64,000 nucleotides of DNA from Candidatus Latescibacterota bacterium (GTDB taxonomy: Bacteria; Latescibacterota; UBA2968; UBA8231), in assembly GCA_965223905.1 (NCBI GenBank), contig CBDCXV010000002.1, positions 512,001-576,000 of the forward strand, read 5' to 3'. Shown piece after piece: positions 2 through 55,660 of this stretch. Each line of letters opens with the position of its first letter. Within the stretch, counting starts at the first letter, position 1. Both the position numbers and the translations under genes were made by a program. Below the pieces are notes generated by a model, which was given only the letters and a program-made list of their open reading frames with translations, ran no database searches and was not told the DNA's origin.

Positions 2-2769
<2,768 letters not shown>

Positions 2770-2773
<4 letters not shown>

Positions 2774-3498: not shown

Positions 3499-3579
3499 CT
3501 ACCGTGTAAGTCCTCCCAGATTTCCTTGGCAAACCCCACTTGCGCACCTCTCTCCCACCCTCCCTTGCGGATGAGGCCT

Positions 3580-20890: not shown

Positions 20891-20900
20891 TGGAATGGTC

Positions 20901-21545: not shown

Positions 21546-21675
21546 CGGTTTTCTCCGTGTCGGAAGAGGGATCTCACGGGTGTGCGGCGGCAGGCACCAG
21601 CGCAGAATTGCGGTGTCAGGCGTTGCGCCGTGCTGTTCGTGAATGGTAGGATATTGGCTGCACACAAAACAGCGC

Positions 21676-26573: not shown

Positions 26574-27164
26574 TCAGAAATACACCAGCGCCGTCATCTC
26601 CGTCTGGAAGGTCTCGAGGGACCACTCCCACTCGCGGTTGAGGTCCTCTTTCTCGTAGCGATAGCTCAGGTCCAGTCCGGTCTGGCCGCTCAGGCTGATG
26701 CGCTGGAACGGGAACCAGTCGGCACCCAAGCCCACTGCCAGCCCCAGATCGCGCTCGGTTCGGGTGCGCTGTTTCACGGAATCGCTGCCGAATCCCCTAT
26801 CCCAAATAGCAATACCTGCGTGGGCTTTATAAATAACAAAGGGGGCGACCTCGTTGTGCAGAGGGCGGAAGTGCTTGATGGCAGGACGCAGTTGCAGACT
26901 TAGAGACCGATACGGTATTCGGATATCGTCTCGGTCAAGGTTATCCAGGTCGTGTATGGTGCTTTCGCGGTAAAGCGATGACAAACCTATTTCAAGGCCG
27001 AAGGCAGTGACGGGAGAGCGTACTTTCCACAGGCTGATGCTGCGTTCGCTGCTGGAAGGCAGGGGCACGCCCAACGCCCAGCCGCCCCGGTCCGCCAGGG
27101 GGCCTTCAGCAGAGGCCGCGGCGCCTGTCAACAGGATCAGGGAGAGCAACGATTTAGCCAGCAT
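26574..27164 (-). CDS. Outer-membrane beta-barrel protein, paralog 1
   Basis: Signal peptide; amphipathic strands; GLGADWFP; C-terminal YF. Confidence 0.75.
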   Translation of the reverse strand: MLAKSLLSLILLTGAAASAEGPLADRGGWALGVPLPSSSERSISLWKVRSPVTAFGLEIGLSSLYRESTIHDLDNLDRDDIRIPYRSLSLQLRPAIKHFRPLHNEVAPFVIYKAHAGIAIWDRGFGSDSVKQRTRTERDLGLAVGLGADWFPFQRISLSGQTGLDLSYRYEKEDLNREWEWSLETFQTEMTALVYF

Positions 27165-27295
27165 GAGCTTCGGGATCCCATAGCCTGTGGCGGTATTCAT
27201 CGGGAAAAAGAACCGCTGACAGCAAGACCAAAATTAAAAAGAGGCATTGTGTTAATTGCGGGTTGTGGAGTGGTGAGAGGAGCCATCGTCTTTGG

Positions 27296-27898
27296 TCAGA
27301 AATACATCAATGCCTTCAATTGCGATTGGAAGGTCCGCAAGTACAGGTTCCAACTGGTTTGGGAGGTGTTGGAATCAATCCCCCTGGAATCGTGCTGAAA
27401 GTAGCGGTACCCCAGTCTCAGCCCGGTCTGACCGCCCAGGCTGATGCGTGGAAAGGGGAACCATTCGACTCCCAAACCAAATCCTATCCCTATGTTGCCT
27501 CCGCTGCTGCCCTGCGAATTCAGACCATATTCCCGTTCGTGTCCCGAAAAACCGGCTTCAACCTGGCTGTAGGTAAAGGAGGCGACCCGATTGTTCAGCG
27601 GCCGATACCTCTTGATTGTGGGACTCAGCCGCAGGCTCAGGTAATGGCTATTGATGGCTGCTGAACCGGGGTCATCCGCGTTGGCGGTGGAGTCGCGGAG
27701 GCTCCACGAAACCCTTGTTTCCAGGCCCAGGGCGGTGGTGGGAGAGCGGATCTTCCACACGCTGAAGCTGCTTCCGCCGCCCGAAGGCAGGGCTACCCCC
27801 AGCCCCCAGTTCCCGCGGCCGGCCAGGGGGCCTTCCTGGTGGGCGGAGGCGATGCCGCTGGTCATCAGGACGATCCAGATCAGACGGGAGACGGACAT
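27296..27898 (-). CDS. Outer-membrane beta-barrel protein, paralog 2
   Basis: Shares EGPLA, WKxRSP, WFPFxRISLxGQTG and terminal YF with the neighbour. Confidence 0.75.
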   Translation of the reverse strand: MSVSRLIWIVLMTSGIASAHQEGPLAGRGNWGLGVALPSGGGSSFSVWKIRSPTTALGLETRVSWSLRDSTANADDPGSAAINSHYLSLRLSPTIKRYRPLNNRVASFTYSQVEAGFSGHEREYGLNSQGSSGGNIGIGFGLGVEWFPFPRISLGGQTGLRLGYRYFQHDSRGIDSNTSQTSWNLYLRTFQSQLKALMYF

Positions 27899-28323
27899 GG
27901 GAGCTTCTCCTGAAGGCGCCGTGGGACGACGGAAGGGGATCCTTTGTATTGCAATACCCGAAAAAACCCAGACGCGCAACCCCTCCGTTCATCCCTGGTG
28001 GACCGACCGGCCCGCCGGAAGGGAGCCGGAGCTGGCGGAACATGCGGGATTTGCGTTGTCCGCGAACACCGCCCGGGGATCGCTCAGCTTCCCGGTTCCT
28101 GCGATTCCGAGCGTTTGGAAACTCACCGTCTCTCAGGTTCTCACGATTACGGGCATGCGGAAGATTCTATTCGGCCGGCTCCTGCGACCGCCGATGAGCA
28201 CGTCCAGCGCCCTGACAGGGAATCCTCGGAAGGGGCTTATCTTTACTTTATGTACATGATGAACCTGCTCGAAGCGCACCAACCTCACGAGCAAGCCTGA
28301 ACCCGGAGTTCATACAGAACGAG

Positions 28324-29688
28324 ATGTCATTTTCGAAGCGACTGGAATCCTGCTCCCTCGAACGCATTACCCGGATGAAGGATGTGGTAGTGCAGGAGAT
28401 CGACCGCATCGACCGTCAGCTGGCCGCCGAAGAGAGGGAGATCGACGCCATGACGGAACAAGTGGAGACGGTCAGTCTGAGCAAAAGGCACGGCCAGTAC
28501 GAGCTGGGCCTCGACAAGGCGGAATCGCGGATCTCCAGGCTGAACGAGGAAAAGGAGAAGCTGCAGGACAAGGCCCGGATCCTCGAGCAGGCGCGCCAGA
28601 GGAAACACCTGATGGACGAGCAGGCCAGGGTGCTGGGCAGCGTCGGCAGGGTGAGAGCCAAGGACCTGCTCATCTTCGTTCTCATCCTATTCCTGATAAC
28701 AATCCTGGTCGTCGACCTGCTCGGCATCGGCGCCATCGGCGGCGGCGCTGTTGCCCAGGCGGAAGTGGAGGACGGGAAAATAAGCGAGATCGTCATCCTG
28801 AACGGGGGAGAAGGGTTTGAGCGGGTGAACATTCACATAACCGATGAGGAAGGTTCGCACGCCCTTGCTTCAGGGCAGGTGGTCGGGGGAAAGCTGAAGC
28901 AGGTGAAGATCATCGACAGCGGAGAGAACTATACCGATCCCGTCGTGGAGATACTGCCGCACTTTGCCGTGAGTACGTTGTGGATATTCTGGATCATCGA
29001 CGTGATATGCTGCGGCCTATTCATGGCCAACTTCGTCTTCGAGCACAGGCTTGCCGATTCAAAGAAGTGGTACTGGAAGAACAACTGGATCGACTTCATA
29101 ACCTCCATACCGCTTCCCCCGGTGCAGGTCATCGCCGCCTCCGGCGACCTGGGCGTCGTTCGCCTGGGGCGTCTGCTCCGGGCGGTGCGCATCCTGAGGG
29201 CGCTGAGGTTGTTCCGCATCGGGCTGTTCTTCTGGCGCGGCATGGACCACCTGAGCTCCACCCTCGACGTGAGACTCCTCAAGCGGTCCCTTCTCTACGG
29301 CCTGCTGTCCCTCGTGTTCGGCGCCTGCATTTTCATGGGCCTGGAGCGCCTCGAGTCCGGCTCGGGGTTCTGGCCCAGCCTCTGGTGGAGCTTCACCACC
29401 CTGGTCACCGGCGGGTACGCCGACATCCACAATCCGCAGACCGCTTCCGGGAAAATCCTCACGGTTTTCCTGGTGATTACGGGCATGGTCCTGGTGGGGG
29501 TCTTTACCGCCACCCTGACCAGTGTGCTGGTGAAGGACGAGGATTCCGTCCAGGCCGAGGAGCTGGAGGAGCAGGTCGCCATCGCGACGAAAATCCAGAA
29601 GGACGTGAAGGAGGCCAACGAGCGCCTGGACCGGCTCGAGGGCAGCATCGGCGAAATCCGGGACGCCATGTCTGACCGGGGGAAGTAG
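28324..29688 (+). CDS. Voltage-gated-type cation (K+-like) channel with a coiled-coil N-terminus
   Basis: NWIDFITSIP (S3); RLGRLLRAVRILRALRLFR (S4); pore LWWSFTTLVTGGYADI. Confidence 0.88.
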   Translation: MSFSKRLESCSLERITRMKDVVVQEIDRIDRQLAAEEREIDAMTEQVETVSLSKRHGQYELGLDKAESRISRLNEEKEKLQDKARILEQARQRKHLMDEQARVLGSVGRVRAKDLLIFVLILFLITILVVDLLGIGAIGGGAVAQAEVEDGKISEIVILNGGEGFERVNIHITDEEGSHALASGQVVGGKLKQVKIIDSGENYTDPVVEILPHFAVSTLWIFWIIDVICCGLFMANFVFEHRLADSKKWYWKNNWIDFITSIPLPPVQVIAASGDLGVVRLGRLLRAVRILRALRLFRIGLFFWRGMDHLSSTLDVRLLKRSLLYGLLSLVFGACIFMGLERLESGSGFWPSLWWSFTTLVTGGYADIHNPQTASGKILTVFLVITGMVLVGVFTATLTSVLVKDEDSVQAEELEEQVAIATKIQKDVKEANERLDRLEGSIGEIRDAMSDRGK

Positions 29689-29704
29689 GAGCTTCGGGCG
29701 GTCC

Positions 29705-32700
29705 TTGTTTCCGGCCCCGGCCTTTCGGAAGGCCATCGCCCTGCTCGCCGTGCTGGCCGGCTGCTTCAGCCTGCCCCGTCCGCTGTTTGCCGAGCGGTTG
29801 CTGATCAACGAACTGATGTCGAACAACCAGTCCTGCTGTGCGGACCGGTACGGCCAGTTCGACGACTGGATTGAGATACACAACGCGGGCGGCCGCGCGG
29901 TGAACATCGGCGGCATGTTCATCACCGACGACCTCACCGATCCAGGGGCCTTCCAGTTCCCCACGGATGACCGCAAAGCCACCACGATCCCGGCCGGTGG
30001 ATACATCCTGCTGTGGGCGGACGAAGACCACGACCAGCCGGGGTTCCATCTGAATTTCGGGCTCTCTTCGAACGGCGAGCAGCTGGGGTTGTTCGCTTCG
30101 GACGGCACCACGCTCGTCGATTCAGTGACATTCGGTCCACTGCGGCCCGACGTTTCCTACGCCCGGGTACCGGACGGAAAAGGCTGGTTCCTTGTGGACG
30201 AGCCCTCCCCGGGGAGGAAGAACGATTCCTCCGGGAAGCGCCGCCATTCCCAGGCTCCCTCGTACTCGCACGAGAGCGGCCGCTACGACTATCCCTTCAC
30301 CGTTATCTTGAGCCACCCGGATCCCAAAACCCGCATCTTCTTCTCTACCGATGGCAGCATCCCCACGGGGAAGAAGCGTTACGACGGGATCGGGGTCCGT
30401 ATCGAAACCACGACAGTCCTGCGGTCAGTCGCGGTCGCGAAAGGCCTTCTCCCCAGTGACGTGATGACTCGCACCTACTTTGTCGGTGACGAGGTCAGCC
30501 TGCCGACTGTTTCGCTTGCTGTCGACCCGGAGCATCTCTGGGGCGACAAACTGGGGATCTATGTCGAGGGGGATCGCAGGAACTTCACCCGCGACTGGGA
30601 ACGCCCCGCCCATATCGAATTTTACGATGTGGCGGGGGGTCTGGAATTCTCCCAGGACGTGGGCGTGAAGCTTCACGGCGGCTGGTCCCGCAACCAGCCG
30701 CAGAAGTCGATCGCCGTACGCGCCCGCCGGGGATACGGCAACGAGGCCATATACTACCCTCTCTTCCCCGACAAACCTTTAACCCGATACAAGGGTTTCG
30801 TCCTGCGCAACTCCGGCAATGACTGGACGTACACGCTCCTTCGCGACGCGATCATGCAGGCCCTGGTCAAGGGTCGCATGGACATCGACTACCAGGCCTA
30901 CAGACCCGTCGTTCTCTTTCTCAACGGCCAGTACTGGGGTATCCACAACATGCGCGAGCGCATTTCGGTCGACTATCTAACGGATAACCACGGATTCGGA
31001 TCGGACGAAATCGATTACCTCGTCAACGATTCAGAGGCGAGGGCAGGAGACGCCGAACACTATCAGTCGTTTCTCAGCTTCTTCGAGAGCAGCGATCTGC
31101 AGGAAGCCGGCGCCATTGAGGAGATACGGGCAAGCATGGATCTCGATGAATTCCTCAACTACCAGATTGCCGAAATCTACTCCGTGAACACCGATTGGCC
31201 CGGCAACAATTGGGAATTCTGGCGTCCCCGCAGCGCGGACGGCCGCTGGCGATGGATATTCTTCGATCTGGACTACGGGTTCAACTTGCCTCTGGCATTG
31301 AACCCCAGCCCTCCCGAGCTCGACATGGTGGCATGGGCGACCACTCCCGGTGAGGATTGGTGGAATCCCCCCTGGGCCACGTTCCTCATGCAAAGGCTTC
31401 TCGAGATCGATGAAGTCAGGCAGGATTTCATTCAACGGTTCGCGAGCCATCTGAACACCACTTTCGAAAGGACCCGGGTCGAGGCCGTTATCGACAGCAT
31501 GAGGAACGCCGTTGCGGAGGAGATACCCCGGCATTCCGAACGGTGGGCCCCCTACCCTTCCCCTTTCTATGGAAATGCGTTCGCTTCGATAGAGGAGTGG
31601 GATGCCAATCTCGAGGTGATGCGGTCCTTCGCCCGGGTGAGGGCAGGCCATGTATGGGGTCACCTGCAGAACAAATTCTCCCTTGGGGGCCGATCCACGC
31701 TTTCGCTCGAGGTCGAGCCCGAGGGGGCGGGTACCGTCTTTGTAAACACCGTACCGGTAACGGTTTCCCGTTCATCCGGTCTCTACTTCAACGGGGTGCC
31801 CATCGATGTGGTGGCGGTTGCGGCACCCGGGTTCGAGTTCGACAGCTGGTCGGATCCGGTCTCGGAAACCTCCCGCGCCAGGCTGGCCATCGAGGGGAAC
31901 TACGGGATTGCCGCCCGGTTCACATCCTCGGGACAGGAGCCCGTTTCACCCGGGCAGCCGCCCGTTGTGATCAACGAGATCAACTACAATTCGGGTGAGG
32001 CTCTCGACTCCGGGGACTGGGTCGAGCTTCACAACCATGGCGCCGTCCCCGTCGAGATCGGGGGCTGGCGCTTTCGCGATGCGGGGAACTCGCCCGACTT
32101 CATTCTGCCCCCCGATGTCCTTCTCGAGGCGGGCGGCTACGTGGTGCTTTGCCGTGACAGCACCGATTTCAGAATGGCCTTTCCGGAGACCGATGGCTGT
32201 CTCGGCGACTTTCCCTTCGGCCTGAGCAGCCGCGGGGACCACATTACTCTTTTGACCGGCCTGGAGCGGGTGGTCGATTCGGTGGTGTATGACGAGCGCC
32301 CTCCCTGGCCGACCGAGCCGAACGGAACCGGCTTCACCCTGGCCCTGATCGAGCCCACGGCCGACAACTCCCGCCACGAAAACTGGTACGCCTCACCCGA
32401 CGGGGGGACCCCCGGAGTGTGGAATGCTCCGGCCACTCCCTCCGCATCGAATCCGGGGGTGAGGGCGGTCAGCTATCCGAATCCCTTTTACACCAGTGCC
32501 ACGGTGTTCCTGAGCCTGTCGAGAACTTCCAATGTGTCCGTTCAGGTGTTCAACCTGCTGGGAGCCCATGTGGCGACCCTTGTCGATGACGAGATCATGG
32601 AGGCGGCCGAGCACTCGCTTGTCTGGGACGGCCGGTCCGCGGCCGGACATGAGGTCGCCTCGGGAGTCTACCTGTGCCGCATCACGATCAACGGGTTCCC

Positions 32701-32740
32701 CATGACCAGGAAGATGTTGAAGGTCGCGCGAAATCGGTGA
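29705..32740 (+). CDS. Secreted CotH-family kinase with lamin-tail domains and a FlgD-like C-terminal domain
   Basis: Signal peptide; LTD motifs INELM..DWIEIHN and INEIN..DWVELHN; CotH motifs LNGQYWG, NTDWPGNN, WIFFDLD; YPNPF...WDG...SGVY. Confidence 0.9.
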   Translation: MFPAPAFRKAIALLAVLAGCFSLPRPLFAERLLINELMSNNQSCCADRYGQFDDWIEIHNAGGRAVNIGGMFITDDLTDPGAFQFPTDDRKATTIPAGGYILLWADEDHDQPGFHLNFGLSSNGEQLGLFASDGTTLVDSVTFGPLRPDVSYARVPDGKGWFLVDEPSPGRKNDSSGKRRHSQAPSYSHESGRYDYPFTVILSHPDPKTRIFFSTDGSIPTGKKRYDGIGVRIETTTVLRSVAVAKGLLPSDVMTRTYFVGDEVSLPTVSLAVDPEHLWGDKLGIYVEGDRRNFTRDWERPAHIEFYDVAGGLEFSQDVGVKLHGGWSRNQPQKSIAVRARRGYGNEAIYYPLFPDKPLTRYKGFVLRNSGNDWTYTLLRDAIMQALVKGRMDIDYQAYRPVVLFLNGQYWGIHNMRERISVDYLTDNHGFGSDEIDYLVNDSEARAGDAEHYQSFLSFFESSDLQEAGAIEEIRASMDLDEFLNYQIAEIYSVNTDWPGNNWEFWRPRSADGRWRWIFFDLDYGFNLPLALNPSPPELDMVAWATTPGEDWWNPPWATFLMQRLLEIDEVRQDFIQRFASHLNTTFERTRVEAVIDSMRNAVAEEIPRHSERWAPYPSPFYGNAFASIEEWDANLEVMRSFARVRAGHVWGHLQNKFSLGGRSTLSLEVEPEGAGTVFVNTVPVTVSRSSGLYFNGVPIDVVAVAAPGFEFDSWSDPVSETSRARLAIEGNYGIAARFTSSGQEPVSPGQPPVVINEINYNSGEALDSGDWVELHNHGAVPVEIGGWRFRDAGNSPDFILPPDVLLEAGGYVVLCRDSTDFRMAFPETDGCLGDFPFGLSSRGDHITLLTGLERVVDSVVYDERPPWPTEPNGTGFTLALIEPTADNSRHENWYASPDGGTPGVWNAPATPSASNPGVRAVSYPNPFYTSATVFLSLSRTSNVSVQVFNLLGAHVATLVDDEIMEAAEHSLVWDGRSAAGHEVASGVYLCRITINGFPMTRKMLKVARNR

Positions 32741-32993
32741 CCTGAAGGTCGAATCCGCTCAACAGCTCCAAGGGGCTGCGTAATGGCGCGGTGGTCCACT
32801 TCCCGGGGAGGACCTCTGCCGCCCGACAGCGACCCGAGCCACGCCGGCGCGCCCCATCGAGACATCCCCCCAACCGCCGGAACTTCTTGAATTTGAACAG
32901 CTTGGAGACGAACTTCATGGCGGCCTTCGGTCGCGTTTCGCTTCCCTTCCTCTCTACCCCGCCTTTTGAAGGTTACTCAGGAGTCAGTGTCTG

Positions 32994-33674
32994 ATGGATA
33001 GCCTGTTGCTCGATTTCGGGACGATCAAACTCCACTGGAACCAGGTCCTTCTCTCCCTCGTATTCGCCTTTTGCCTTTCGAGCATAATCGCAATGGTGTA
33101 CGAGTGGACGTTCCAGGGCCTGTCCTGGTCTCGCGGTTTGATGCAGACCATGGTTCTGGGCAGCATCATCACCTGTCTGCTGATGATTGCGATCGGCGAC
33201 AACGTCGCCCGGGGCATCGGTATCGTGGGGTCGCTGGCCATCATCCGTTTTCGCACCAACCTGCGCGATCCGCGCGATCTGGTGTTCCTCTTCGCTGCTC
33301 TTGGTGCCGGGGTAGCCTGCGGCGTTCAGAGCTACCTCGCCGCCACCTTCGCAACCGCCCTGTTCTGTACGATCGCGGTAGTCATGCACGCGTCGCTGTT
33401 CGGCACGCGGATGAAATTCGATGGACTCGTGCGCTTCCAGATACCGGCGGGGCCGACCTTTGCCGCCCAGGTGGCCCGGATACTGCAAGAGGTACCGAGA
33501 ACGTTCGCCCTGGTCACCATGCGGGACGTCGCCCAGGGCGATCTCGTCGACTGCACCTACCAGGTGAAACTCGCCGACGAAGCGGACTCGACGCGGCTGA
33601 TCGAGGTTCTCGGACAGATCGAAGGCATACGCGGGCTGACCTTCATGAACCACTCCTCTGCCGTAGAGGTGTAG
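32994..33674 (+). CDS. DUF4956 membrane protein
   Basis: GIVGSLAIIRFRTNLRDPRD signature. Confidence 0.9.
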   Translation: MDSLLLDFGTIKLHWNQVLLSLVFAFCLSSIIAMVYEWTFQGLSWSRGLMQTMVLGSIITCLLMIAIGDNVARGIGIVGSLAIIRFRTNLRDPRDLVFLFAALGAGVACGVQSYLAATFATALFCTIAVVMHASLFGTRMKFDGLVRFQIPAGPTFAAQVARILQEVPRTFALVTMRDVAQGDLVDCTYQVKLADEADSTRLIEVLGQIEGIRGLTFMNHSSAVEV

Positions 33675-33677
33675 TGG

Positions 33678-34769
33678 ATGAAGCGCTGGCTGAGGAGGAA
33701 CTCTTTCCGTGCCCTGTGGGTGGCGGGCGTGCTTGCCGCGGCCACCGGCTATCGGGAGTGGCGTGCCGACCCGTATCTGATCGGCACGGTGGTATCGACG
33801 GTGCGCTCGGTGGGCGCTCGCGAGGGAGGTACCATCCAGGAGGTGAGTACCGCAGTGGGGGAAAGCGTCGTGGCCGGCCAGGTCCTGGCTCGCCTGGACG
33901 CCTCCGACCTGTTGGCGGAAAAACGACTGCGTCAAGAAGAGCTGGCCTCCCTGGAGTCGATAGTATCTGCAGACCGGCGTCGATACAGCGTCGAGTACGA
34001 CCTGTTGCGGCTGCGCGTGTCCGAGCAGTACGCCGCCGTCCAGGCGGAGGAGGCCGAGCTCGAGGCCCTCGGCCGGGAAATCGCCGCGCTTGTAGCAGCG
34101 GAGAAAGCCGGCCTGGGACACGATCGCGATCTCACCCGCATGACCATCCGCCGCGATGCCCTGGCGCAGTCGGTAGCCGGACAGTCGACGCTCATTCGGC
34201 CCGACGTGCTCAAGCTTGGCGCCGGCGATTCGGGTGCCTATGGCGACAGCATCATGATTTCGCTTCTCGGCGACCGCGTGCAGCGCCAGCACGAGGTCCG
34301 GCAGTCCCTCGCCCTGATCGATCAGCGCATCGAGTACCGGACGGTCAGGTCGCCGTGTGCGGGATCGGTCTCCGAGATCCTGGCCTTGCAGGGAAGTACG
34401 GTCGATGCTTTCGTGCCCATTGTTTCCGTGGGGAGCGCCGACGCCTCCGCGGTTGAAGTGTACGTCCCGGAGACGGAGGACCTGCAGTTCGATGTCGGAC
34501 AGGAGGTGGAAGTGATGTCGAGGCGGTCGAGCGAGTTCGACGCCAGGGGGAGGATCGACTTCGTGCATCCTGGGTACTCACCGATGCCCGAGAGGCTGTG
34601 GCTGCGCGGGCAGATGTTGTGGGCCAGAAGGGCCCGTGTCCTCCTCGAGCCGGGCCACCTCCTGCTGCCCGGCGAGTCCGTACGCGTACGCCTTGCCGAT
34701 CGCCCGTCCGCACCGTGGGGCGCCTTCGCGGAAGAGAGCGATCCGGAAATCGGGAGACCGGGGCGATGA
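33678..34769 (+). CDS. HlyD-family membrane fusion (periplasmic adaptor) protein
   Basis: N-terminal TM; lipoyl halves GESVVAGQVLARLD and VRSPCAGSV; coiled coil; PGESVRV. Confidence 0.88.
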   Translation: MKRWLRRNSFRALWVAGVLAAATGYREWRADPYLIGTVVSTVRSVGAREGGTIQEVSTAVGESVVAGQVLARLDASDLLAEKRLRQEELASLESIVSADRRRYSVEYDLLRLRVSEQYAAVQAEEAELEALGREIAALVAAEKAGLGHDRDLTRMTIRRDALAQSVAGQSTLIRPDVLKLGAGDSGAYGDSIMISLLGDRVQRQHEVRQSLALIDQRIEYRTVRSPCAGSVSEILALQGSTVDAFVPIVSVGSADASAVEVYVPETEDLQFDVGQEVEVMSRRSSEFDARGRIDFVHPGYSPMPERLWLRGQMLWARRARVLLEPGHLLLPGESVRVRLADRPSAPWGAFAEESDPEIGRPGR

Positions 34770-36079
34770 GAGCAGGCGGCCGGTTTCTCGTGGTGCTGGC
34801 CCCTTTCGTTGCGATCCCCGGTTCGACGGCAGCCTCGGCCGATCTCCCGGGCGAAGCCCCGGGCGTTCACAACGCCGGCAACAAGGGCGGGGTGCCCCTG
34901 ACGATTGAAGAAACGGTGGCGGTGGGTTTGGACAACAACCCGCGGCTGCGTGCGTTCGAAACAGAGACGGACGTTCGCATCCACCGGATTCGCTCGCTCG
35001 ACTGGATCGACAATCCGGAGCTGCGCGTCCGCAACCTGGCCTCTCGGCGCGGGAGGGCCCGGTTCGACGAACTCGAGATCGGCATCCGCTGGCGTCCTCC
35101 TTCCCTCGGTGAGGTGGGAGCGCGACGGCAGCGGAAGCAGGTAGCCTTGTGGGAGCGCAAGGTGGAGGCGGTGAGGGAGCGGCATTGGCTGGCTTCGCGA
35201 GTGCGCCGGTCCTGCGCCGATATCGCCATGCATGCCGAACTGGCCCGCATCGCCGCCATGCGGGTTGAGAATGAGAACCTGCGGATCTCCCAGATCGAGA
35301 CCATGATGGACCTCGGCCGGAGGTCGATCGTCTACTTCACCAAGGCAAAAACGGTCGTTGCCGAGGCGCGCCAGGGTCACCTTCGCAGCTTGCACGCACT
35401 GCGGGAGGAAGAGCGCAGGTTGCGACGACTCACAGGTATCTCCACGCAGACCCGGGTGCTTTCGGAGCCGCTTCCCGAAGTCGCCTTGAATGAAGAGCGA
35501 CTCCTCGTCCTCGCCTACGCCAACCGCCCGGAGCTTCGGTTGGCCGAGGAGCAGCGACAACTCGCCCTCGAAAGGCGAAACCTCGAGAGCTGGCGGCTGC
35601 TGCCGCAGTTGTCCTTCCTGGAGGTTTCCCGACACTTCGAGCGTTCCGAAGGCGACTGGCATGAGCTGGTCTTCGGCCTCGAGCTCCCCCTCTTCAACCG
35701 CAATGCGGGCAACCTGGCCGGCGTTTCCCTTGCGGTGTCGGGAAGCGAGCTCGAGGTCCTCTCCGTTCGCGAGCGCATCGCCGAGGAGGTCCGCGAAACG
35801 CTCTCGGACTACAGGGAAACACTGCTCGCCCGCGACCTGACTCTCCGGGAGGGCGAGGCCATCATCCAAGGCTCGTCGCAGGTTATCGCCGAGACACGGG
35901 ACTACCCTACCGTGCCGGCTGACGAGATCCTGGAGCTCGAGCGCACGATCATGGATGCTCGGGTCGCAATCGCCGAGAGCCAGCGCGATCTGGCGCACGC
36001 GCTCTATTTCCTTTTCTACGAGCTGGGCATCGAGGATCCGGGGGTCCTGCAGGAGGAGGAGGCCCACGATGGCGGTTGA
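34766..36079 (+). CDS. TolC-family outer-membrane efflux protein
   Basis: ATGA overlap; signal peptide; NNPRL, NRPEL, LELPLFNRNAG. Confidence 0.88.
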   Translation: MRAGGRFLVVLAPFVAIPGSTAASADLPGEAPGVHNAGNKGGVPLTIEETVAVGLDNNPRLRAFETETDVRIHRIRSLDWIDNPELRVRNLASRRGRARFDELEIGIRWRPPSLGEVGARRQRKQVALWERKVEAVRERHWLASRVRRSCADIAMHAELARIAAMRVENENLRISQIETMMDLGRRSIVYFTKAKTVVAEARQGHLRSLHALREEERRLRRLTGISTQTRVLSEPLPEVALNEERLLVLAYANRPELRLAEEQRQLALERRNLESWRLLPQLSFLEVSRHFERSEGDWHELVFGLELPLFNRNAGNLAGVSLAVSGSELEVLSVRERIAEEVRETLSDYRETLLARDLTLREGEAIIQGSSQVIAETRDYPTVPADEILELERTIMDARVAIAESQRDLAHALYFLFYELGIEDPGVLQEEEAHDGG

Positions 36080-36839
36080 GCTGCCCGCGGTCCACCGCTA
36101 CGAGTTGAAGTACACGGTGACCGAGCGGCAGGCCGCGGAAATCCGCGATTTCATTCAACCGCTGTTTTCAATCGACGCCAACGTCCCCACGGAGCAGGGA
36201 AGCTACACGGTCAACAGCGTGTACATGGATACTCCCGGGTTGCGCTTCTACCACGACACCAGGCTTCGTCAGCTGCTGCGGTTCAAACCGAGAATCCGTT
36301 TTTACGGCACCGGCGCGGTCGAGTATGTCACCCTCGAGGTCAAGTACCGCCACAACCGCACCGTCTGGAAGGTCCGCGACCGAATCGCTATGACGGAGTG
36401 GCCCGGGGTGCTCGAAATCGCCAGGAGCGAACGCACCTCGCCGACGTACGAGGCCCTGCCGCGGTCCTTCGTCGACGTCCATCATCTGTACGGCACCGCG
36501 CCCGTGCTCCATCTCCGCTACCACCGGGAGCCCTTCGTCAGCGACGTGGACGCGTACGGACGCATTACGTTCGACCGCGGTATGCGCTACCGGCTGATGC
36601 GCGGTTCGTACGACCTGTCGGGCCATGATGAGGAGATGAGCTACTACGACGACGCGGTCACCGCGCAGTGGGCGGAGTCCCCGGTCGTTATGGAGATCAA
36701 GACCGAATCCCTGGTGCCTTTCTGGGCGCTGGACCTCATCAAGCGTTTCTCCCTTGTCCAGCGCGGATACTCCAAGTACCGCTACGTGATCGACCACTGT
36801 CTCGAGCGCCTCGGTAGCCGAAACGACATCGCAGTGTGA
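36069..36839 (+). CDS. VTC-domain (CYTH/triphosphate tunnel) polyphosphate polymerase-like protein
   Basis: RYELKY, SVYMDT, RIRFY, LEVK, RITFD, MEIK, YSKY. Confidence 0.9.
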   Translation: MAVELPAVHRYELKYTVTERQAAEIRDFIQPLFSIDANVPTEQGSYTVNSVYMDTPGLRFYHDTRLRQLLRFKPRIRFYGTGAVEYVTLEVKYRHNRTVWKVRDRIAMTEWPGVLEIARSERTSPTYEALPRSFVDVHHLYGTAPVLHLRYHREPFVSDVDAYGRITFDRGMRYRLMRGSYDLSGHDEEMSYYDDAVTAQWAESPVVMEIKTESLVPFWALDLIKRFSLVQRGYSKYRYVIDHCLERLGSRNDIAV

Positions 36840-36991
36840 GGCCTCCACTGGCAGCTACCTGAGGCTTCACCACGGTACGAAATACATTTTCCGACCAACC
36901 GGCTGCTCTTGTTCCACCGCCTCCGCTGCACTGGGCACGCTAAAACGGTGCGGGTGTCCGGAACCGCAACCGGATCGTGCCGGCCAAGCCA

Positions 36992-38893
36992 TTATGCGGT
37001 TTTTCTTTCTGGAATAACCGGCAACAGAACGTGCGACGGTTGCGCCGCGTTGTGGTGGACCCTGTTGTCCGCGCCCTGTCGCCGCCGCTCCCGGCCGATG
37101 GGGTCGCCGGTGTTGGGGTTGACGTCGAAGCGGGGGAAGTTCGAGCTGGAAACGTCGAGGCGGATCCGGTGCCCGGCGGCGAACAGGTTGCTCGTCGGGT
37201 AGAGGGTGATCGTCAGCTCGGCGACCTCGCCCGGCTCCAGCAGCTCCCCCTTTTCGCGCCCGTTGCGGTAGCGCAGGCGCGCGATGCTGTCGGTCAGGTT
37301 GAGCGCGTACCCGTGCGGATACCAGCGGCTCGGCGGATAGCAGTCGACCAGCTTGGCGGTGAAGTCCGTATCCGGCGCCGCCGACGAGACCCACAGCTTC
37401 ACCTCGATCGGTCCGGTCACCTCCACGTCCCCGGCCAGCGGCCCGGTGGCGAAGACCAGCACGTCCGGCCGCGAGCCCAGCGGCAGGTAGGGAGGCGCAC
37501 AGCCGTAAAACTCCGGCCCCTCCACCTGGTCGAACCCGCCCGGCACCATCAGCTGCTCCACCCGCGCCCGCCACGGCGCATTAGCGGAATCCCCCACGCC
37601 CGGAGGCAGCGGGCCGATCTCGGAAAGCGAGGAGACATTGCCGCCGATCGAGGGCACCGGGTTGGCCGGGTCGAAGCGATAGACCGTATCGCCGCCGTCC
37701 GCGGCCGGCTCTTCCGTCGACAGGGTGCCGTCGCCCTGCAGGTAGTACCTGGTATTCTGCGTCCGCGCCAGCGGCCACTCGGCTTCGTCGCGCCAATGCC
37801 CCCCGTGGAAAAGCCGGCCGCTGCTGGTGCGATACCCGCCGCCGCCGCCCATGGCGAAGATCCGCACCGGCGGCGCCCTCTCCTCGCCGTTGTCGACTCC
37901 CTTGAGCACCCGGTCGAAGAAGCGCAGGTGCAGGTCGCGGAAGTCGGCCAGCGCCGCCTCCTCGCCGAACTCCACGTCCCCTGCAACGCTCTGCTCCAGG
38001 GTCTGCGTCCCGTGCGTCCACGGCCCCATGAGCATGCGCACCGGCCCCTGCTTGCGGGCCGCGAGCCCCTCGTAGTTCTTGCAGGTCGAGCGCGTGTAGG
38101 AATCGTACCAGCCCCCGATGAGCAGCATCGGCACGTCGGGGAAGTCGTCCCAGAAGAGGGCCGGCGCGTAGCTCGGGTGCTGCCAGTACTCGTCGTAGTC
38201 GGCCCTGGTCAGCAGGTCCAGCGCCCACTTCTCGTAGGGCGGCACCAGCTCGAGCTGGGTCTGTCCCTTGCGCAGCGGCATGCGCGTCAGCCAGTCGGCA
38301 AAGGTCGGGGCGCCCAGGTTCAGGGCGGCGTCGACCGCCGGGTCGGCTTTCAACGCGCGCTGCGTGTTGGCCGCCGAATGCCAGAAGGCCCACGCCAGGA
38401 ACCGCAGCTCCAGGGCGCCTCCGTGCCGCACCGAAGACTCGTGCGCGTCGGCGCCGCTCATGTTGACCACCATCGCCTTTAGGTTCGCCGGCCCCAACGC
38501 CGCCATCGCCGTCTGCGTCCAGCCCGACCAGGAGGTCCCCCACGACCCCACCTTGCCGTTGCTCCACGGCTGCCGGTCGATCCACTGCAGGGCGTCGTAC
38601 CCGTCCTCGGCCTCGGGCAGCAGGAAATTGACGTCCCCCTCGGACCGGAACGTCCCGCGGCAGTCCTGGTACACCGCCACGTACCCGCGCTGGGCGAAGA
38701 ACCGGCCGTACCCGCCGGTGCGCTCGACGTCGCTCTTGTCGTAGGGGGTGCGGTGGAAGACCGCGGGGAACTTCCCGGGCAGCGGCTCCCCGTCGCGGGC
38801 GGGGAAGTACAGGTCGGTCGCCAGCCGCACCCCGTCGCGCATTTCCACCATTGCATCGCGTTCTGTTACCACGTCGTAGAGGCCGTTCGTCAT
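36992..38893 (-). CDS. CocE/NonD-family (peptidase S15) hydrolase
   Basis: MRDGVRLATD, RTPY, QDCRG, GTSWSG nucleophile, GPWTH, SSSNFPRF. Confidence 0.93.
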   Translation of the reverse strand: MTNGLYDVVTERDAMVEMRDGVRLATDLYFPARDGEPLPGKFPAVFHRTPYDKSDVERTGGYGRFFAQRGYVAVYQDCRGTFRSEGDVNFLLPEAEDGYDALQWIDRQPWSNGKVGSWGTSWSGWTQTAMAALGPANLKAMVVNMSGADAHESSVRHGGALELRFLAWAFWHSAANTQRALKADPAVDAALNLGAPTFADWLTRMPLRKGQTQLELVPPYEKWALDLLTRADYDEYWQHPSYAPALFWDDFPDVPMLLIGGWYDSYTRSTCKNYEGLAARKQGPVRMLMGPWTHGTQTLEQSVAGDVEFGEEAALADFRDLHLRFFDRVLKGVDNGEERAPPVRIFAMGGGGGYRTSSGRLFHGGHWRDEAEWPLARTQNTRYYLQGDGTLSTEEPAADGGDTVYRFDPANPVPSIGGNVSSLSEIGPLPPGVGDSANAPWRARVEQLMVPGGFDQVEGPEFYGCAPPYLPLGSRPDVLVFATGPLAGDVEVTGPIEVKLWVSSAAPDTDFTAKLVDCYPPSRWYPHGYALNLTDSIARLRYRNGREKGELLEPGEVAELTITLYPTSNLFAAGHRIRLDVSSSNFPRFDVNPNTGDPIGRERRRQGADNRVHHNAAQPSHVLLPVIPERKTA

Positions 38894-39298: not shown

Positions 39299-40588
39299 TT
39301 GAAAACCGTTGACGAGCTGCAGCATGAGATCCACCTCATGCAGGCCATCTTCGACAGCATCAGCGACGGCGTGATAGTCGCCGATGAGAACGGCAGCCTC
39401 ACCTTCAACAAAAGTGCGCAACAGATCGTCGGTGGCAGGCTGGATACGGTCCTCGAACAATGGACGGAGGAGTACAGCATCTTCTACCCCGACAAGGTCA
39501 CGCCCATTCCAAAAGAGGAACTGCCCCTGGTGCGCGCCATGCGCGGGGAAGCGACCGATGAGATGGAGATGTTCATCCTCACTGCGGCCAAGCCTGAAGG
39601 CGTTTATATAAGCGCCAGCGGCAGGCCCATTACTTCGCCGGGCACTGCCGCTCTCGGCGGGGTCATCGTCTTCCGGGATGTGACGGAAAGAGTGCGGGCC
39701 GGAGAAGCCCTGGCCCAGGCCTTCGCCCAGGGCCGCCTCGAGGTCATGGACACCATCCTGCACAACATCGGCAATGCCATAAACAGCGTGGCCATCGGCA
39801 TCGGAACACTCAAGGAACAGTTGGCCGACAATCTGCTGATCGAACGGTTGTCGGGCCTGTCACAAGCCGTCGGGGCGCATTCGGAGGATTGGATCGACTA
39901 CCTCCGGCATGACCCGCAAGGCCGGAAGGTGCGGCCGTTTCTCCTGGCTCTTGCCGAGGACCTCGTAAAGCAGAATCAGAAATTGATCGGCACGGTTGAA
40001 CGCGTCGACAGCCAGACGGGTCAGATCGTCGACATCGTCCGCGCCCAACGGGGTTTCGACAGCAAGGCCATGACCTGCAAGGACGTCAACCTGCGTGAGG
40101 CCATCTTCGGCTGCCTGAGGATCCTGGAGAACTCGTTTTCCAGCCGGGGAATCCGCACACATGTCAACTGCGGCAGCGCCCCGGAAGAGATCCGCATTCA
40201 GGAGACCCAGTTCAACCAGATGCTCGTCAACCTGCTCAAGAACGGGATGGAAGCCATCGACGAGTTGAAGCAGTCAGGGGGTCTCGAAGGAGAGTCTCGC
40301 ATCGAGATAAGAGCCAGCGTCAGCCAGGACCTGCTCGTCCTCGAGGTGGAGGACAACGGGGTCGGCATCGACCGGAAGAACCTCCAGGCGATCTTCAGGG
40401 CGGGTTATACGACGAAGCGGGAAGGGAGCGGGCTCGGTCTGCACTCGGCGGCCAATTTCGTCACCAGTATCGGGGGTAAAATCCAACCCTTGAGCCGCGG
40501 CCATGGCACGGGCGCCACCATGCGCGTCACGCTGCGGCTCGATTCCGCCGGTCGGGATCGGGACACCACGCCGGCAACCCCTGCCTGA
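39299..40588 (+). CDS. Cytoplasmic PAS sensor histidine kinase
   Basis: PAS region; H-box LHNIGN; N-box NLLKNG; DNGVG; GSGLGL. Confidence 0.9.
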   Translation: MKTVDELQHEIHLMQAIFDSISDGVIVADENGSLTFNKSAQQIVGGRLDTVLEQWTEEYSIFYPDKVTPIPKEELPLVRAMRGEATDEMEMFILTAAKPEGVYISASGRPITSPGTAALGGVIVFRDVTERVRAGEALAQAFAQGRLEVMDTILHNIGNAINSVAIGIGTLKEQLADNLLIERLSGLSQAVGAHSEDWIDYLRHDPQGRKVRPFLLALAEDLVKQNQKLIGTVERVDSQTGQIVDIVRAQRGFDSKAMTCKDVNLREAIFGCLRILENSFSSRGIRTHVNCGSAPEEIRIQETQFNQMLVNLLKNGMEAIDELKQSGGLEGESRIEIRASVSQDLLVLEVEDNGVGIDRKNLQAIFRAGYTTKREGSGLGLHSAANFVTSIGGKIQPLSRGHGTGATMRVTLRLDSAGRDRDTTPATPA

Positions 40589-42870: not shown

Positions 42871-42888
42871 GGCGATTCCTCCAGTGCC

Positions 42889-42904
42889 TGGCACGGTGCG
42901 TGCA
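42889..42904 (+). promoter_or_regulatory. Sigma-54 (-24/-12) promoter
   Basis: TGGCACGGTGCGTGCA, with correct GG-N10-GC spacing. Confidence 0.75.
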
Positions 42905-42964
42905 AGAGTATGGGCTGCGAGAACGATTTCCGTTCTGGCCGAACATGCGGAGAGGGAGGGCGAC

Positions 42965-55644: not shown

Positions 55645-55660
55645 TGGCACGGTTCGTGCA
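55645..55660 (+). promoter_or_regulatory. Sigma-54 promoter, copy 2
   Basis: TGGCACGGTTCGTGCA. Confidence 0.75.

What the first reader, a model, noticed from the sequence alone, without database searches (positions are those of the whole stretch)
28324..36839. Channel-CotH-DUF4956-HlyD-TolC-VTC cluster: candidate bacterial polyphosphate synthesis and export machine
Seen: six co-oriented genes, the last four overlapping or within 4 bp. HlyD and TolC are present with no ABC, RND or MFS pump; DUF4956 is the only inner-membrane candidate in that operon. Known: eukaryotic Vtc4 couples polyP synthesis by a CYTH tunnel domain to membrane translocation; CotH proteins are secreted atypical kinases; VTC, DUF4956 and CotH genes often co-occur without an assigned function. 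Inference: VTC makes polyP, DUF4956-HlyD-TolC forms a non-canonical trans-envelope conduit, the surface CotH uses the exported phosphate donor, and the channel provides charge compensation.
Basis: partly seen in the sequence, partly recalled or inferred. Interest (0 to 1): 0.8.

Follow-up and report, generated by a model that had tools for sequence, protein, structure and literature searches.

The report
Candidate bacterial polyphosphate export machine
A tightly packed four-gene unit pairs a yeast-like polyphosphate-making enzyme and a small membrane protein with two proteins that bridge the periplasm and outer membrane, and it recurs across many two-membraned bacterial phyla, which suggests an undescribed way to push polyphosphate out of the cell.

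Summary
Six co-oriented genes lie at 28324-36839: ion channel, CotH/LTD/T9SS protein, DUF4956, HlyD, TolC/OEP, VTC. The last four are separated by 3 bp or overlap by 4 and 11 bp.

The real unit is the four-gene core DUF4956-HlyD-TolC-VTC. In 56 related loci from Latescibacterota, Gemmatimonadota, Myxococcota, KSB1, Ignavibacteria, Marinimicrobia and others, TolC lies directly upstream of VTC in 47 of 47 loci with enough flank. HlyD is present in 44 of 45 and DUF4956 in 34 of 36. No ABC, RND or MFS pump adjoins the core in 15 loci examined.

Four monoderm or CPR loci have VTC next to DUF4956 with no HlyD or TolC detected. The Vtc4 residues R264, R266 and E426 are conserved.

The channel recurs in only 1 of 56 loci. 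A CotH kinase domain occurs in 16 of 60 loci; LTD/T9SS proteins are commoner.

Best reading (about 0.5): polymerase-driven polyphosphate export through DUF4956, HlyD and TolC. No biochemistry exists. The complex prediction could not be run. Searches of the held library found no description.

The parts
28324..29688 (+). Voltage-gated-type ion channel (454 aa) with an N-terminal coiled coil. The pore motif reads TGGYAD, not the canonical GYG. It is a neighbour, not part of the conserved unit.
   Evidence: Pfam Ion_trans 56.5 bits and Ion_trans_2 41 bits. Sequence. A homologue next to the core is seen only in L001, 1 of 56 loci.
29705..32740 (+). Secreted or surface multidomain protein (1011 aa): signal peptide with a lipobox-like LAGC, LTD, CHB_HEX_C, CotH kinase domain (residues 321-648), a second LTD, and a T9SS C-terminal sorting domain. 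It is the accessory component.
   Evidence: Pfam. TIGR04183 at 31.5 bits against a cut-off of 23. Sequence. The CotH-domain profile matches B. cereus CotH 5jd9 at E 3.9e-46. D-x4-N and D-x-D motif columns are kept.
32741..32993 (+). A 253-bp intergenic gap that probably separates two transcription units. No recognisable promoter, terminator or RNA family.
   Evidence: There is one weak hairpin at 32920-32934, and the number of such sites is not above the shuffles.
32994..33674 (+). DUF4956 inner-membrane protein (226 aa): five predicted TM helices plus a C-terminal ACT-like domain (MgtC-like architecture). It carries the near-invariant motif IGDNxARGxGxVGSLAIIRFRTNLRDPRDL. It is the proposed inner-membrane conduit and docking site.
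   Evidence: Pfam PF16316 at 42.8 bits; MgtC at 18.3 bits, below its cut-off. Alignment A3. AF2 model with pLDDT 79.6. Foldseek matches to ACT domains and MgtC C-terminal domains 7qa5 and 2lqj. It is the most conserved of the four core proteins, at median 61% identity.
33678..34769 (+). HlyD-type periplasmic adaptor, short form (363 aa): basic N-terminus, one TM helix, lipoyl/barrel-sandwich domains and a long helical hairpin. It lacks the C-terminal beta-propeller found in 28 related loci.
   Evidence: Pfam and NCBIfam. Sequence. N-termini of all relatives. Propeller census.
34766..36079 (+). TolC/OEP-family outer-membrane duct (437 aa) with a signal peptide.
   Evidence: Pfam OEP at 51.2 bits in two stretches. 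Start and signal peptide. Directly upstream of VTC in 47 of 47 eligible loci.
36069..36839 (+). Stand-alone cytoplasmic VTC (Vtc4-type triphosphate-tunnel) domain protein (256 aa). It is the proposed polyP polymerase and has no SPX or TM domain.
   Evidence: Pfam PF09359 at 101.7 bits. The profile matches the Vtc4 catalytic domain (3g3q and others) over its whole length at E 4.3e-07. K14, R75, R77, E90, K92, E209, K211, S235 and K236 are invariant.

Best explanation
DUF4956-HlyD-TolC-VTC is one functional module: a polymerase-driven, envelope-spanning exporter of inorganic polyphosphate.

The proposed mechanism is as follows.
- The soluble VTC protein, a homologue of the catalytic tunnel domain of yeast Vtc4, makes polyP from ATP at the cytoplasmic face.
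- It docks on DUF4956, a five-helix membrane protein with a cytoplasmic ACT-like domain. DUF4956, probably as an oligomer, takes the place of the Vtc1/Vtc4 membrane channel.
- A membrane-anchored HlyD-type adaptor and a TolC-type duct carry the growing chain across the periplasm and outer membrane.
- Chain growth supplies the driving force, so no ABC, RND or MFS pump is needed.
- At the surface, T9SS-delivered LTD proteins bind, anchor or use the polymer. Some of these, including the one in this window, carry a CotH kinase domain.

Shown: gene content, spacing, conserved synteny, the pattern across envelope types, and conserved catalytic residues. Inferred: the polyP product, the VTC-DUF4956 contact, passage through DUF4956, HlyD and TolC, and the role of the LTD/CotH proteins.
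For: 1. Synteny. Of 56 loci whose VTC is 41-91% identical, TolC lies directly upstream of VTC in 47 of 47 with at least 1.4 kb of upstream flank. HlyD is present in 44 of 45 with at least 2.5 kb, and DUF4956 in 34 of 36 with at least 4.8 kb. These loci span at least eight phylum-level labels. The misses are second, partial copies in genomes that also hold a complete one: L002 beside L001, and the first copy in L003.

2. No other pump. Pfam on 79 flanking ORFs of 15 loci found no ABC, RND or MFS gene next to the core. Flanking genes differ from locus to locus.

3. Envelope pattern. Patescibacteria L059, Paenibacillus L063, Pseudobutyrivibrio L064 and Nonomuraea L065 have VTC directly followed by DUF4956, three of them with CotH, and no HlyD or TolC was detected. 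In the diderm subfamily the adaptor and duct lie between the two genes.

4. DUF4956 pairs with HlyD or TolC even outside this subfamily.
   - Chondrinema plasmid L061: DUF4956 then HlyD.
   - Hymenobacter plasmid L062: DUF4956, then OEP (5e-41), then a T9SS protein.
   - Latescibacterota L057: an HlyD_3-like gene, then VTC, then DUF4956.

5. Catalytic residues. Window R75, R77 and E209 align with Vtc4 R264, R266 and E426, whose triple mutation gives an inactive complex. K14 aligns with K200, K92 with K281, and S235/K236 with S457/K458. All are invariant in 23 sequences.

6. Adaptor type. Every HlyD has a short basic N-terminus and one TM helix. From general knowledge, this type pairs with inner-membrane partners that lack large periplasmic domains, as DUF4956 does.

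7. Conservation. DUF4956 is the most conserved component, with an Arg-rich invariant motif.

8. Accessory proteins. They carry signal and T9SS sorting domains, so they act outside the cell.

9. Genetics in a monoderm. In Streptococcus intermedius, deleting the DUF4956 and CotH homologues lowers Pel-dependent aggregation (passages of PMC12345266).
Against: - There is no biochemical evidence that any bacterial VTC-domain protein makes polyP. The conserved tunnel residues are shared by triphosphate-tunnel hydrolases (general knowledge), so they do not separate a polymerase from a triphosphatase.
- DUF4956 resembles MgtC (ACT-like C-terminus; weak Pfam MgtC hit). MgtC is known as a regulator, not a channel. 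The model showed no similarity to the Vtc1 membrane domain.
- L061 and L062 have DUF4956 with HlyD or TolC but no VTC within 7 kb. The membrane module may therefore handle another cargo.
- One database protein, P0143, joins HlyD, the propeller and VTC in one chain with no TM segment between them. If real, this conflicts with the proposed topology.
- No VTC-DUF4956 or genuine DUF4956-HlyD fusion was found.
- A pair of ABC half-transporter genes lies 7.8 kb upstream in the window.
- Whole-protein pI of TolC (median 6.05) and HlyD (5.86) shows no obvious adaptation to a polyanion. This is a crude measure.
Confidence: 0.5

Rival explanations
1. The module exports something other than free polyP. 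In one version the tunnel enzyme acts as an NTP or triphosphate hydrolase that regulates or energises DUF4956. In another it makes a short or covalently attached phosphate product, for example on a glycan or lipid, as the Pel-linked gene set in Gram-positives might suggest.
For: - DUF4956 with HlyD or TolC occurs without VTC in two Bacteroidota plasmids.
- In monoderms the gene trio lies within polysaccharide clusters (PMC7112168 passages; PMC12345266 passages).
- Tunnel residues do not separate a polymerase from a hydrolase.
- The propeller on long HlyD forms resembles Ca-dependent nucleotidases and other hydrolases.
Against: - By sequence the protein belongs to the VTC family (PF09359, 101.7 bits). 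Every one of the six distinct PDB sequences its profile matched at E up to 0.01 is Vtc4.
- A polysaccharide-export gene pair (Wzz, Poly_export) turned up in 1 of 15 loci (L033) and a sugar-nucleotide dehydrogenase in one more (L046). No glycosyltransferase or polymer synthase accompanies the diderm core.
Confidence: 0.2
2. DUF4956 is an MgtC-like regulator or anchor, polyP stays in the cytoplasm, and HlyD-TolC works with a pump encoded elsewhere. Under this reading the synteny reflects co-regulation, for example in phosphate or metal stress.
For: - MgtC-like architecture.
- Two ABC half-transporter genes lie 7.8 kb upstream in the window.
- From general knowledge, TolC-type ducts are often shared between pumps.
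Against: - None of 15 loci has a pump next to the core. L040 has a separate TetR-OEP operon, with its own OEP, beyond two transposase genes.
- The ABC pair does not reappear in the 79 flanking ORFs of the 15 loci.
- Overlapping start and stop codons across the four genes and a fixed gene order across phyla point to a stoichiometric complex.
- No adaptor or duct was detected in the monoderm loci.
Confidence: 0.12
3. The cluster, including the channel and CotH as obligate parts, is one six-gene machine.
For: The six genes are co-oriented, with 16 bp between channel and CotH. The same six-gene order occurs in L001.
Against: - The channel is absent from the other 55 loci.
- A CotH kinase domain is in 16 of 60 loci.
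- A 253-bp gap separates CotH from DUF4956.
- In L004 and L005 the CotH gene lies downstream of VTC instead.
Confidence: 0.05

Closest known systems
Eukaryotic VTC complex (Vtc4/Vtc3/Vtc1), a polyP polymerase coupled to a membrane channel
   Same: The catalytic tunnel domain is homologous over its whole length, and R264, R266, E426, K200, K281, S457 and K458 are conserved. The enzyme is obligatorily partnered with a small multi-helix membrane protein. The proposed logic, synthesis coupled to translocation, is the same (PMC9911596: abstract and passages).
   Different: There is no SPX domain and no fused DUF202-type TM domain. The membrane partner is a separate, unrelated MgtC-like protein. The destination is outside the cell through an adaptor and an outer-membrane duct, not a vacuole lumen. 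Activity is untested.
CotH / polyP-polymerase / DUF4956 accessory genes beside pel operons and in Clostridium perfringens NELoc-2 (Gram-positives)
   Same: The same three families are adjacent (PMC7112168 passages; PMC2879425 passages; PMC12345266 passages). I confirmed this here in L064 and L065.
   Different: Those loci have no HlyD or TolC detected, and the order is VTC then DUF4956. Here an adaptor and a duct lie between the two genes. CotH is often replaced by LTD/T9SS proteins, and only 1 of 15 loci (L033) has a polysaccharide-export gene pair nearby.
[quoted passage not shown]
   Same: A membrane-anchored HlyD-family adaptor and an OEP-family duct are encoded together with an inner-membrane component (review PMC8277102, abstract in the search listing only).
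   Different: The inner-membrane component is not ABC, RND or MFS. The presumed energy source is polymerisation by a soluble enzyme. The presumed cargo is an inorganic polyanion.
Mixed-linkage beta-glucan production in rhizobia, reported to require TolC
   Same: It is a polymer-producing system reported to need TolC (PMC13438883: title and start of abstract in the search listing only). It may be the nearest functional analogy for synthase-driven export through a TolC duct.
   Different: The polymer is a polysaccharide made by a membrane-embedded glycosyltransferase and is unrelated in sequence. I did not read the paper beyond the listing. That this system also uses a periplasmic adaptor is my recollection, not something I saw.
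MgtC family
   Same: A helical membrane domain followed by an ACT-like C-terminal domain. The authors of PMC12345266 describe the streptococcal homologue the same way.
   Different: The Pfam MgtC score is 18.3 bits, below the 31.4 cut-off. The protein belongs to PF16316. MgtC is not known to partner with an adaptor or duct.

Membership tests
VTC / Vtc4 catalytic tunnel domain (PF09359) | Sequence match above the curated cut-off | tested here: met
   101.7 bits against a cut-off of 23. The profile matches Vtc4 structures over their full length at E 4.3e-07.
VTC / Vtc4 catalytic tunnel domain (PF09359) | Catalytic and tunnel residues (Vtc4 K200, R264, R266, K281, E426, S457, K458) | tested here: met
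   Window K14, R75, R77, K92, E209, S235 and K236 are invariant in 23 sequences. I mapped them by hand from the alignment. The inactive R264A/R266A/E426N mutant is cited from PMC9911596. The roles of the other residues are recalled.
VTC / Vtc4 catalytic tunnel domain (PF09359) | PolyP polymerase activity | not testable with these tools
   Needs an enzyme assay.
Eukaryotic VTC complex | SPX sensor domain and a fused or partner DUF202-type three-helix TM domain | tested here: not met
   The 256-aa protein has only the VTC domain. The partner is DUF4956, and its model gave no Vtc1-like fold match.
DUF4956 (PF16316) | Sequence match above the curated cut-off | tested here: met
   42.8 bits against a cut-off of 30.6.
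MgtC family (PF02308) | Sequence match above the curated cut-off | tested here: not met
   18.3 bits against a cut-off of 31.4. Only the architecture and the ACT-like C-terminus resemble MgtC.
HlyD / membrane-fusion protein family | Barrel-sandwich and HlyD domains; N-terminal membrane anchor | tested here: met
   HlyD_D23 at 44.4 bits against a cut-off of 30 and HlyD_3 at 40.3 against 22.2. A TM helix is read in the sequence. No NCBIfam subfamily cut-off is reached: RND_mfp scores 64.4 against 94.9.
Canonical tripartite efflux pump / T1SS | A cognate ABC, RND or MFS inner-membrane transporter encoded with the adaptor | tested here: not met
   None in the cluster and none next to the core in 15 loci. 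The ABC pair 7.8 kb upstream does not reappear in those loci.
Outer membrane efflux protein (PF02321) | Two OEP repeats and a signal peptide | tested here: met
   51.2 bits in two stretches. The signal-peptide-like N-terminus was read directly. There is no NCBIfam hit.
CotH kinase family (PF08757) | Sequence match and retained active-site motifs | tested here: met
   158 bits. The domain profile matches 5jd9 at E 3.9e-46. D and N columns are invariant and D-x-D is kept. That these are the catalytic and metal-binding positions is recalled. Kinase activity was not tested.
T9SS type A cargo | C-terminal sorting domain | tested here: met
   TIGR04183 at 31.5 bits against a cut-off of 23. Pfam Por_Secre_tail at 20.6 bits is below its cut-off of 27.
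Potassium-selective channel | A T-x-G-Y-G-D selectivity filter | tested here: not met
   The sequence reads TGGYAD. Ion_trans and Ion_trans_2 domains are present. The filter consensus is recalled.

The most novel reading that the evidence does not exclude
This is a further class of envelope-spanning exporter. Its inner-membrane engine is not a pump but a polymerase-channel pair: a Vtc4-like enzyme plus an MgtC-like DUF4956 oligomer. The pair feeds nascent polyphosphate through a dedicated HlyD-TolC duct to the surface of diverse diderm bacteria, where LTD and CotH proteins capture or use it. If so, it would be the first genetically defined route for bacterial extracellular polyP. It would also give the DUF4956 branch of the MgtC-like superfamily a transport function.
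Probability: 0.4. Interest if true: 0.9.

Novelty: new variant of a known kind. Interest (0 to 1): 0.78.

Why it matters
Some bacteria release or accumulate polyphosphate outside the cell, with effects on phagocytes and innate defence (abstracts seen in the search listing: PMC10653871, PMC12772234, PMC7423913). None of those abstracts names an export route.

The VTC/DUF4956/CotH trio has been noted for years without a function. The diderm version found here adds two parts whose job is well understood: a periplasmic adaptor and an outer-membrane duct. That makes the direction of transport readable from the genome and turns a vague association into a four-gene hypothesis that can be tested by expression.

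If the hypothesis is right, it extends tripartite export systems to an inorganic polymer and a pump-free, polymerisation-driven mechanism. It also links bacterial and eukaryotic polyP synthesis and gives a handle on DUF4956 and MgtC-like membrane domains. The family is large: 8773 representative clusters match the VTC profile at E up to 0.001, and 361 at E up to 1e-30.

Tried and rejected
- **Complex prediction.** The calls were 44, 47, 50, 53, 55, 57, 60, 66, 73, 78, 80, 86, 95, 97, 99, 101, 103, 110, 113, 118, 121, 123 and one more's retry. It was never accepted, because the queue was full or the machine gave no answer. No verdict exists on binding.
- **First locus scan.** The scan with alignment A1 failed for lack of a conserved stretch. 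It was repeated with the closer set A2.
- **Fusion searches.**
  - VTC with 'longer' candidates gave none (weak evidence).
  - DUF4956 with 'longer' candidates gave one hit, P0105. Its DUF4956 C-terminus is replaced by low-complexity sequence before the HlyD start, so I read it as a frameshift artefact.
  - P0143, joining HlyD, propeller and VTC, is unresolved.
- **phmmer 'CotH' hits in the loci.** Most of them align through the LTD and T9SS-tail regions, not the kinase domain. I rejected the first count and replaced it with a CotH-domain HMM and an LTD search.
- **Regulatory and RNA scans.** The Rfam scan of 27000-38000 gave no match. The promoter/terminator scan gave nothing above the shuffles. 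The sigma-54 pattern gave no site before the cluster, and its total count was not above chance.
- **ESM Atlas on the DUF4956 membrane domain.** Best score 0.79, uninformative.
- **Direct phmmer of the CotH protein against PDB.** No hit. A profile was needed.
- **pI of TolC and HlyD as a proxy for polyanion adaptation.** Uninformative.
- **Search for the propeller of long HlyD forms in the window.** None at E up to 10.
- **The CotH kinase paper (PNAS 2016).** It could not be opened by DOI or PubMed id. What I say of CotH active-site residues is recalled.
- **Collections not searched.** Supplements of the bioRxiv versions were not seen.

Full report
**What is there**

The + strand between 28324 and 36839 carries six ORFs.
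- An Ion_trans channel at 28324-29688.
- A 1011-aa protein at 29705-32740 with a CotH kinase domain, two lamin-tail domains (LTD), a chitobiase-type domain and a T9SS sorting tail.
- DUF4956 at 32994-33674.
- A HlyD-type adaptor at 33678-34769.
- An OEP/TolC protein.
- A VTC-domain protein.

Reading the junctions, I place the TolC start at the ATG at 34766. This start overlaps the HlyD stop as ATGA and is followed by a signal-peptide-like sequence. I place the VTC start at the ATG at 36069, which overlaps TolC by 11 bp and gives the 256 aa that nearly all relatives have. DUF4956 and HlyD are 3 bp apart. CotH and DUF4956 are separated by 253 bp that hold no recognisable promoter, terminator or RNA family.

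One qualification applies. The operon itself has no ABC, RND or MFS gene. However, two tandem ABC half-transporter genes (21643-23415 and 23412-25193, 35% identical to each other) lie on the same strand about 7.8 kb upstream of DUF4956.

**The conserved unit**

I aligned the window's VTC protein with 15 relatives (A2) and scanned one genome per species. This returned 60 loci. Their record titles name Latescibacterota, Gemmatimonadota, Myxococcota/Deltaproteobacteria, KSB1, Ignavibacteria, Marinimicrobia (Neomarinimicrobiota), Calditrichaeota, Cytophagia, Deferribacteres and Spirochaetales. The nearest is a Latescibacterota chromosome at 91% identity.

I ran phmmer with the six window proteins against all ORFs of these loci and counted with flank requirements. 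Among the 56 loci whose VTC is 41-91% identical:
- TolC lies directly upstream of VTC in 47 of 47 with at least 1.4 kb upstream.
- HlyD is present in 44 of 45 with at least 2.5 kb upstream.
- DUF4956 is present in 34 of 36 with at least 4.8 kb upstream.

The misses are L002 and the first copy in L003. Both are second, partial copies in genomes that also hold a complete set. Loci too short to judge were left out of each denominator.

Median identity to the window over 41 loci is 61% for DUF4956, 47% for VTC, 35% for HlyD and 36% for TolC. The small membrane protein is therefore the most constrained part.

Flanking genes differ from locus to locus. Pfam on 79 flanking ORFs from 15 diverse loci found no ABC, RND or MFS transporter next to the core. 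L040 has a separate TetR-OEP operon beyond two transposase genes.

**What is not conserved**

The channel recurs only in L001.

My first count of 'CotH' neighbours was wrong. The phmmer hits mostly align through the LTD and T9SS-tail parts of the window protein. Pfam shows that the usual gene just downstream of VTC encodes about 680 aa with three LTD domains and a T9SS tail, and no kinase domain. This holds for the KSB1, Ignavibacteria, Marinimicrobia and Calditrichaeota loci.

A CotH-domain HMM finds a kinase domain in 16 of 60 loci. An LTD-bearing ORF occurs in 31 of 60 loci, and one or the other in 35 of 60. These counts cover whatever flank each locus has, so they are lower bounds.

The accessory theme is therefore a secreted LTD protein, sometimes with CotH. 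The window's CotH domain is a good family member: a domain profile hits B. cereus CotH 5jd9 at E 3.9e-46, and the D-x4-N and D-x-D columns are kept.

**Envelope type**

Loci outside the main subfamily give a small natural comparison.
- **Monoderm or CPR organisms.** These are Patescibacteria L059, Paenibacillus L063, Pseudobutyrivibrio L064 and Nonomuraea L065. In all four, VTC is directly followed by DUF4956, three have CotH beside them, and no HlyD or TolC was detected. For L063 and L065 only my own subfamily HMMs were used, which could miss a distant adaptor.
- **Diderms.**
  - A distant Latescibacterota locus (L057) has an HlyD_3-like gene just upstream of VTC-DUF4956.
  - A Chondrinema plasmid has DUF4956 then HlyD.
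  - A Hymenobacter plasmid has DUF4956, then an OEP protein, then a T9SS protein. Neither plasmid has VTC within 7 kb.

The adaptor and duct therefore track DUF4956 in two-membraned cells. This is what one expects if DUF4956 is their inner-membrane partner. The two plasmid cases also warn that the membrane module can exist without a nearby VTC gene.

**The parts**

*VTC protein.* The VTC profile matches the catalytic domain of yeast Vtc4 over its full length (3g3q and others, E 4.3e-07). Counting along that alignment gives these correspondences:
- window R75, R77 and E209 to Vtc4 R264, R266 and E426;
- K14 to K200;
- K92 to K281;
- S235 and K236 to S457 and K458.

All are invariant in 23 sequences. 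The triple mutant R264A/R266A/E426N is the catalytically impaired complex used for cryo-EM in PMC9911596 (passages read). These residues are also typical of tunnel-fold hydrolases in general (my knowledge). They show an intact active site, not polymerase chemistry.

*DUF4956.* It folds with mean pLDDT 79.6 into five membrane helices and a C-terminal alpha/beta domain. Foldseek matches that domain to ACT domains and to the C-terminal domains of MgtC (7qa5, 2lqj). Nothing matches the membrane part, and nothing resembles Vtc1. The Pfam MgtC score is below its cut-off. Its invariant motif is rich in arginine.

*HlyD.* Every HlyD in the family starts with a short basic stretch and one membrane helix.

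*Long-form HlyD propeller.* In 28 loci the adaptor is about 680 aa and ends in a beta-propeller (weak DUF6929, DUF6910 and Phytase-like hits; census). The window has the short form and no propeller anywhere. The propeller model is confident (pLDDT 91.9). It is closest to the YjiK C-terminal domain, to a human Ca-activated nucleotidase (TM 0.53) and to paraoxonases. This is a lead towards a Ca- or phosphate-binding role, no more.

**Mechanism**

The simplest account of all this is a polymerase-driven exporter. VTC makes polyP at the cytoplasmic face of DUF4956. DUF4956 passes it across the inner membrane. HlyD and TolC carry it out. Surface LTD/CotH proteins then deal with it. Polymerisation would supply the force, as proposed for the yeast complex (PMC9911596). 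I put this at about 0.5.

Three points count against it.
- The regulator-like ancestry of DUF4956.
- The VTC-less plasmid loci.
- One unexplained database protein, P0143, that joins HlyD, the propeller and VTC with no membrane segment between them. It could be a lost stop between overlapping genes. P0105 (DUF4956 joined to HlyD) clearly is such an artefact, since its reading frame breaks down before the junction.

The VTC-DUF4956 complex prediction could not be run.

**Comparison and novelty**

The trio of CotH, polyP polymerase and DUF4956 is in print as an uncharacterised accessory set.
- It lies beside Gram-positive pel operons (PMC7112168 passages).
- It occurs in Clostridium perfringens NELoc-2 (PMC2879425 passages).
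- In Streptococcus intermedius, deletions of the DUF4956 and CotH homologues reduce aggregation (PMC12345266 passages).

I found nothing on a version with HlyD and TolC.
- No paper in the held library contains both 'VTC' and 'HlyD' (0 hits).
- 'DUF4956' occurs in five papers, four listed, none of whose titles or abstract starts concerns a diderm cluster.
- The searches gave nothing relevant either.

Subscription journals and about 1.7 million further PMC articles are not covered.

I file the cluster as a new variant of a known kind. The adaptor and duct are ordinary family members. The inner-membrane engine and the presumed cargo are not.

**Verdict**

The core four-gene module and its outward direction are well supported by comparative genomics. 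The polyP product and the conduit role of DUF4956 are inferred. The channel's role is not supported, and the CotH role is optional at best. Interest 0.78.

Noticed in passing
window 21643-23415 and 23412-25193 (+): There are two tandem ABC half-transporter genes, 35% identical to each other. The second matches MsbA-like models below their cut-offs. The ORF listing merges the second into a 1437-aa ORF (20880-25193) whose first 860 aa have no family.
   Followed up: partly
window 2-6580: Likely defence island: a type I restriction R subunit (2-2773), a YgjP-like metallopeptidase (2770-3498), and then SIR2-like (3580-4821, minus strand) and HATPase_c_3 (5621-6580, minus strand) genes. GC drops to 0.507 at 4001-6000.
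   Followed up: no
window 42889-42903 and 55645-55659 (+): Two near-identical sigma-54-like motifs (TGGCACGGTGCGTGC and TGGCACGGTTCGTGC, one mismatch each) lie at the heads of the two Calx-beta giant protein genes (42884-48205 and 55719-58718). A sigma-54 activator gene (40670-42589) and a PAS histidine kinase gene (39299-40588) lie just upstream. The total count of motif hits in the window is not above chance.
   Followed up: no
L009, L017, L028, L047 and 24 further loci (HlyD gene, C-terminal about 310 codons): The long form of the adaptor carries a confident beta-propeller (pLDDT 91.9). It is closest to YjiK, a Ca-activated nucleotidase and paraoxonase. It is absent from the window and from 17 short-form loci.
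   Followed up: partly
P0143 (no locus held): An 839-aa database protein joins a TM helix, HlyD, the propeller and VTC in one chain with no linker or TM segment between propeller and VTC. It is either a real fusion that challenges the topology or a lost stop codon.
   Followed up: partly
L061 6944-9884; L062 5754-10735: Bacteroidota plasmids carry DUF4956-HlyD-(416-aa unknown) and (359-aa unknown)-DUF4956-OEP-T9SS protein, with no VTC within 7 kb. The unknown proteins have no Pfam family.
   Followed up: partly
L001 and L002 (same chromosome OZ242214.1); L003: The nearest relative's genome holds two copies of HlyD-TolC-VTC, with equal scores to the window's proteins. One copy lacks DUF4956. 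Transposase genes and CotH fragments lie just downstream of the complete copy. L003 has a partial copy 5 kb from a complete one.
   Followed up: no
L047 3332-5185 (-); L051 4562-6580 (+): In two Myxococcota loci a Cthe_2159 carbohydrate-binding beta-helix protein lies just upstream of DUF4956.
   Followed up: no
window 29705-29800: The CotH protein's N-terminus holds a lipobox-like LAGC after a hydrophobic stretch, as well as the C-terminal T9SS sorting domain. I read this from the sequence, and no predictor was run.
   Followed up: no
window 48531-52553 (-): A 1340-aa protein with WD40 propeller repeats followed by four Big_1/invasin-type Ig domains.
   Followed up: no
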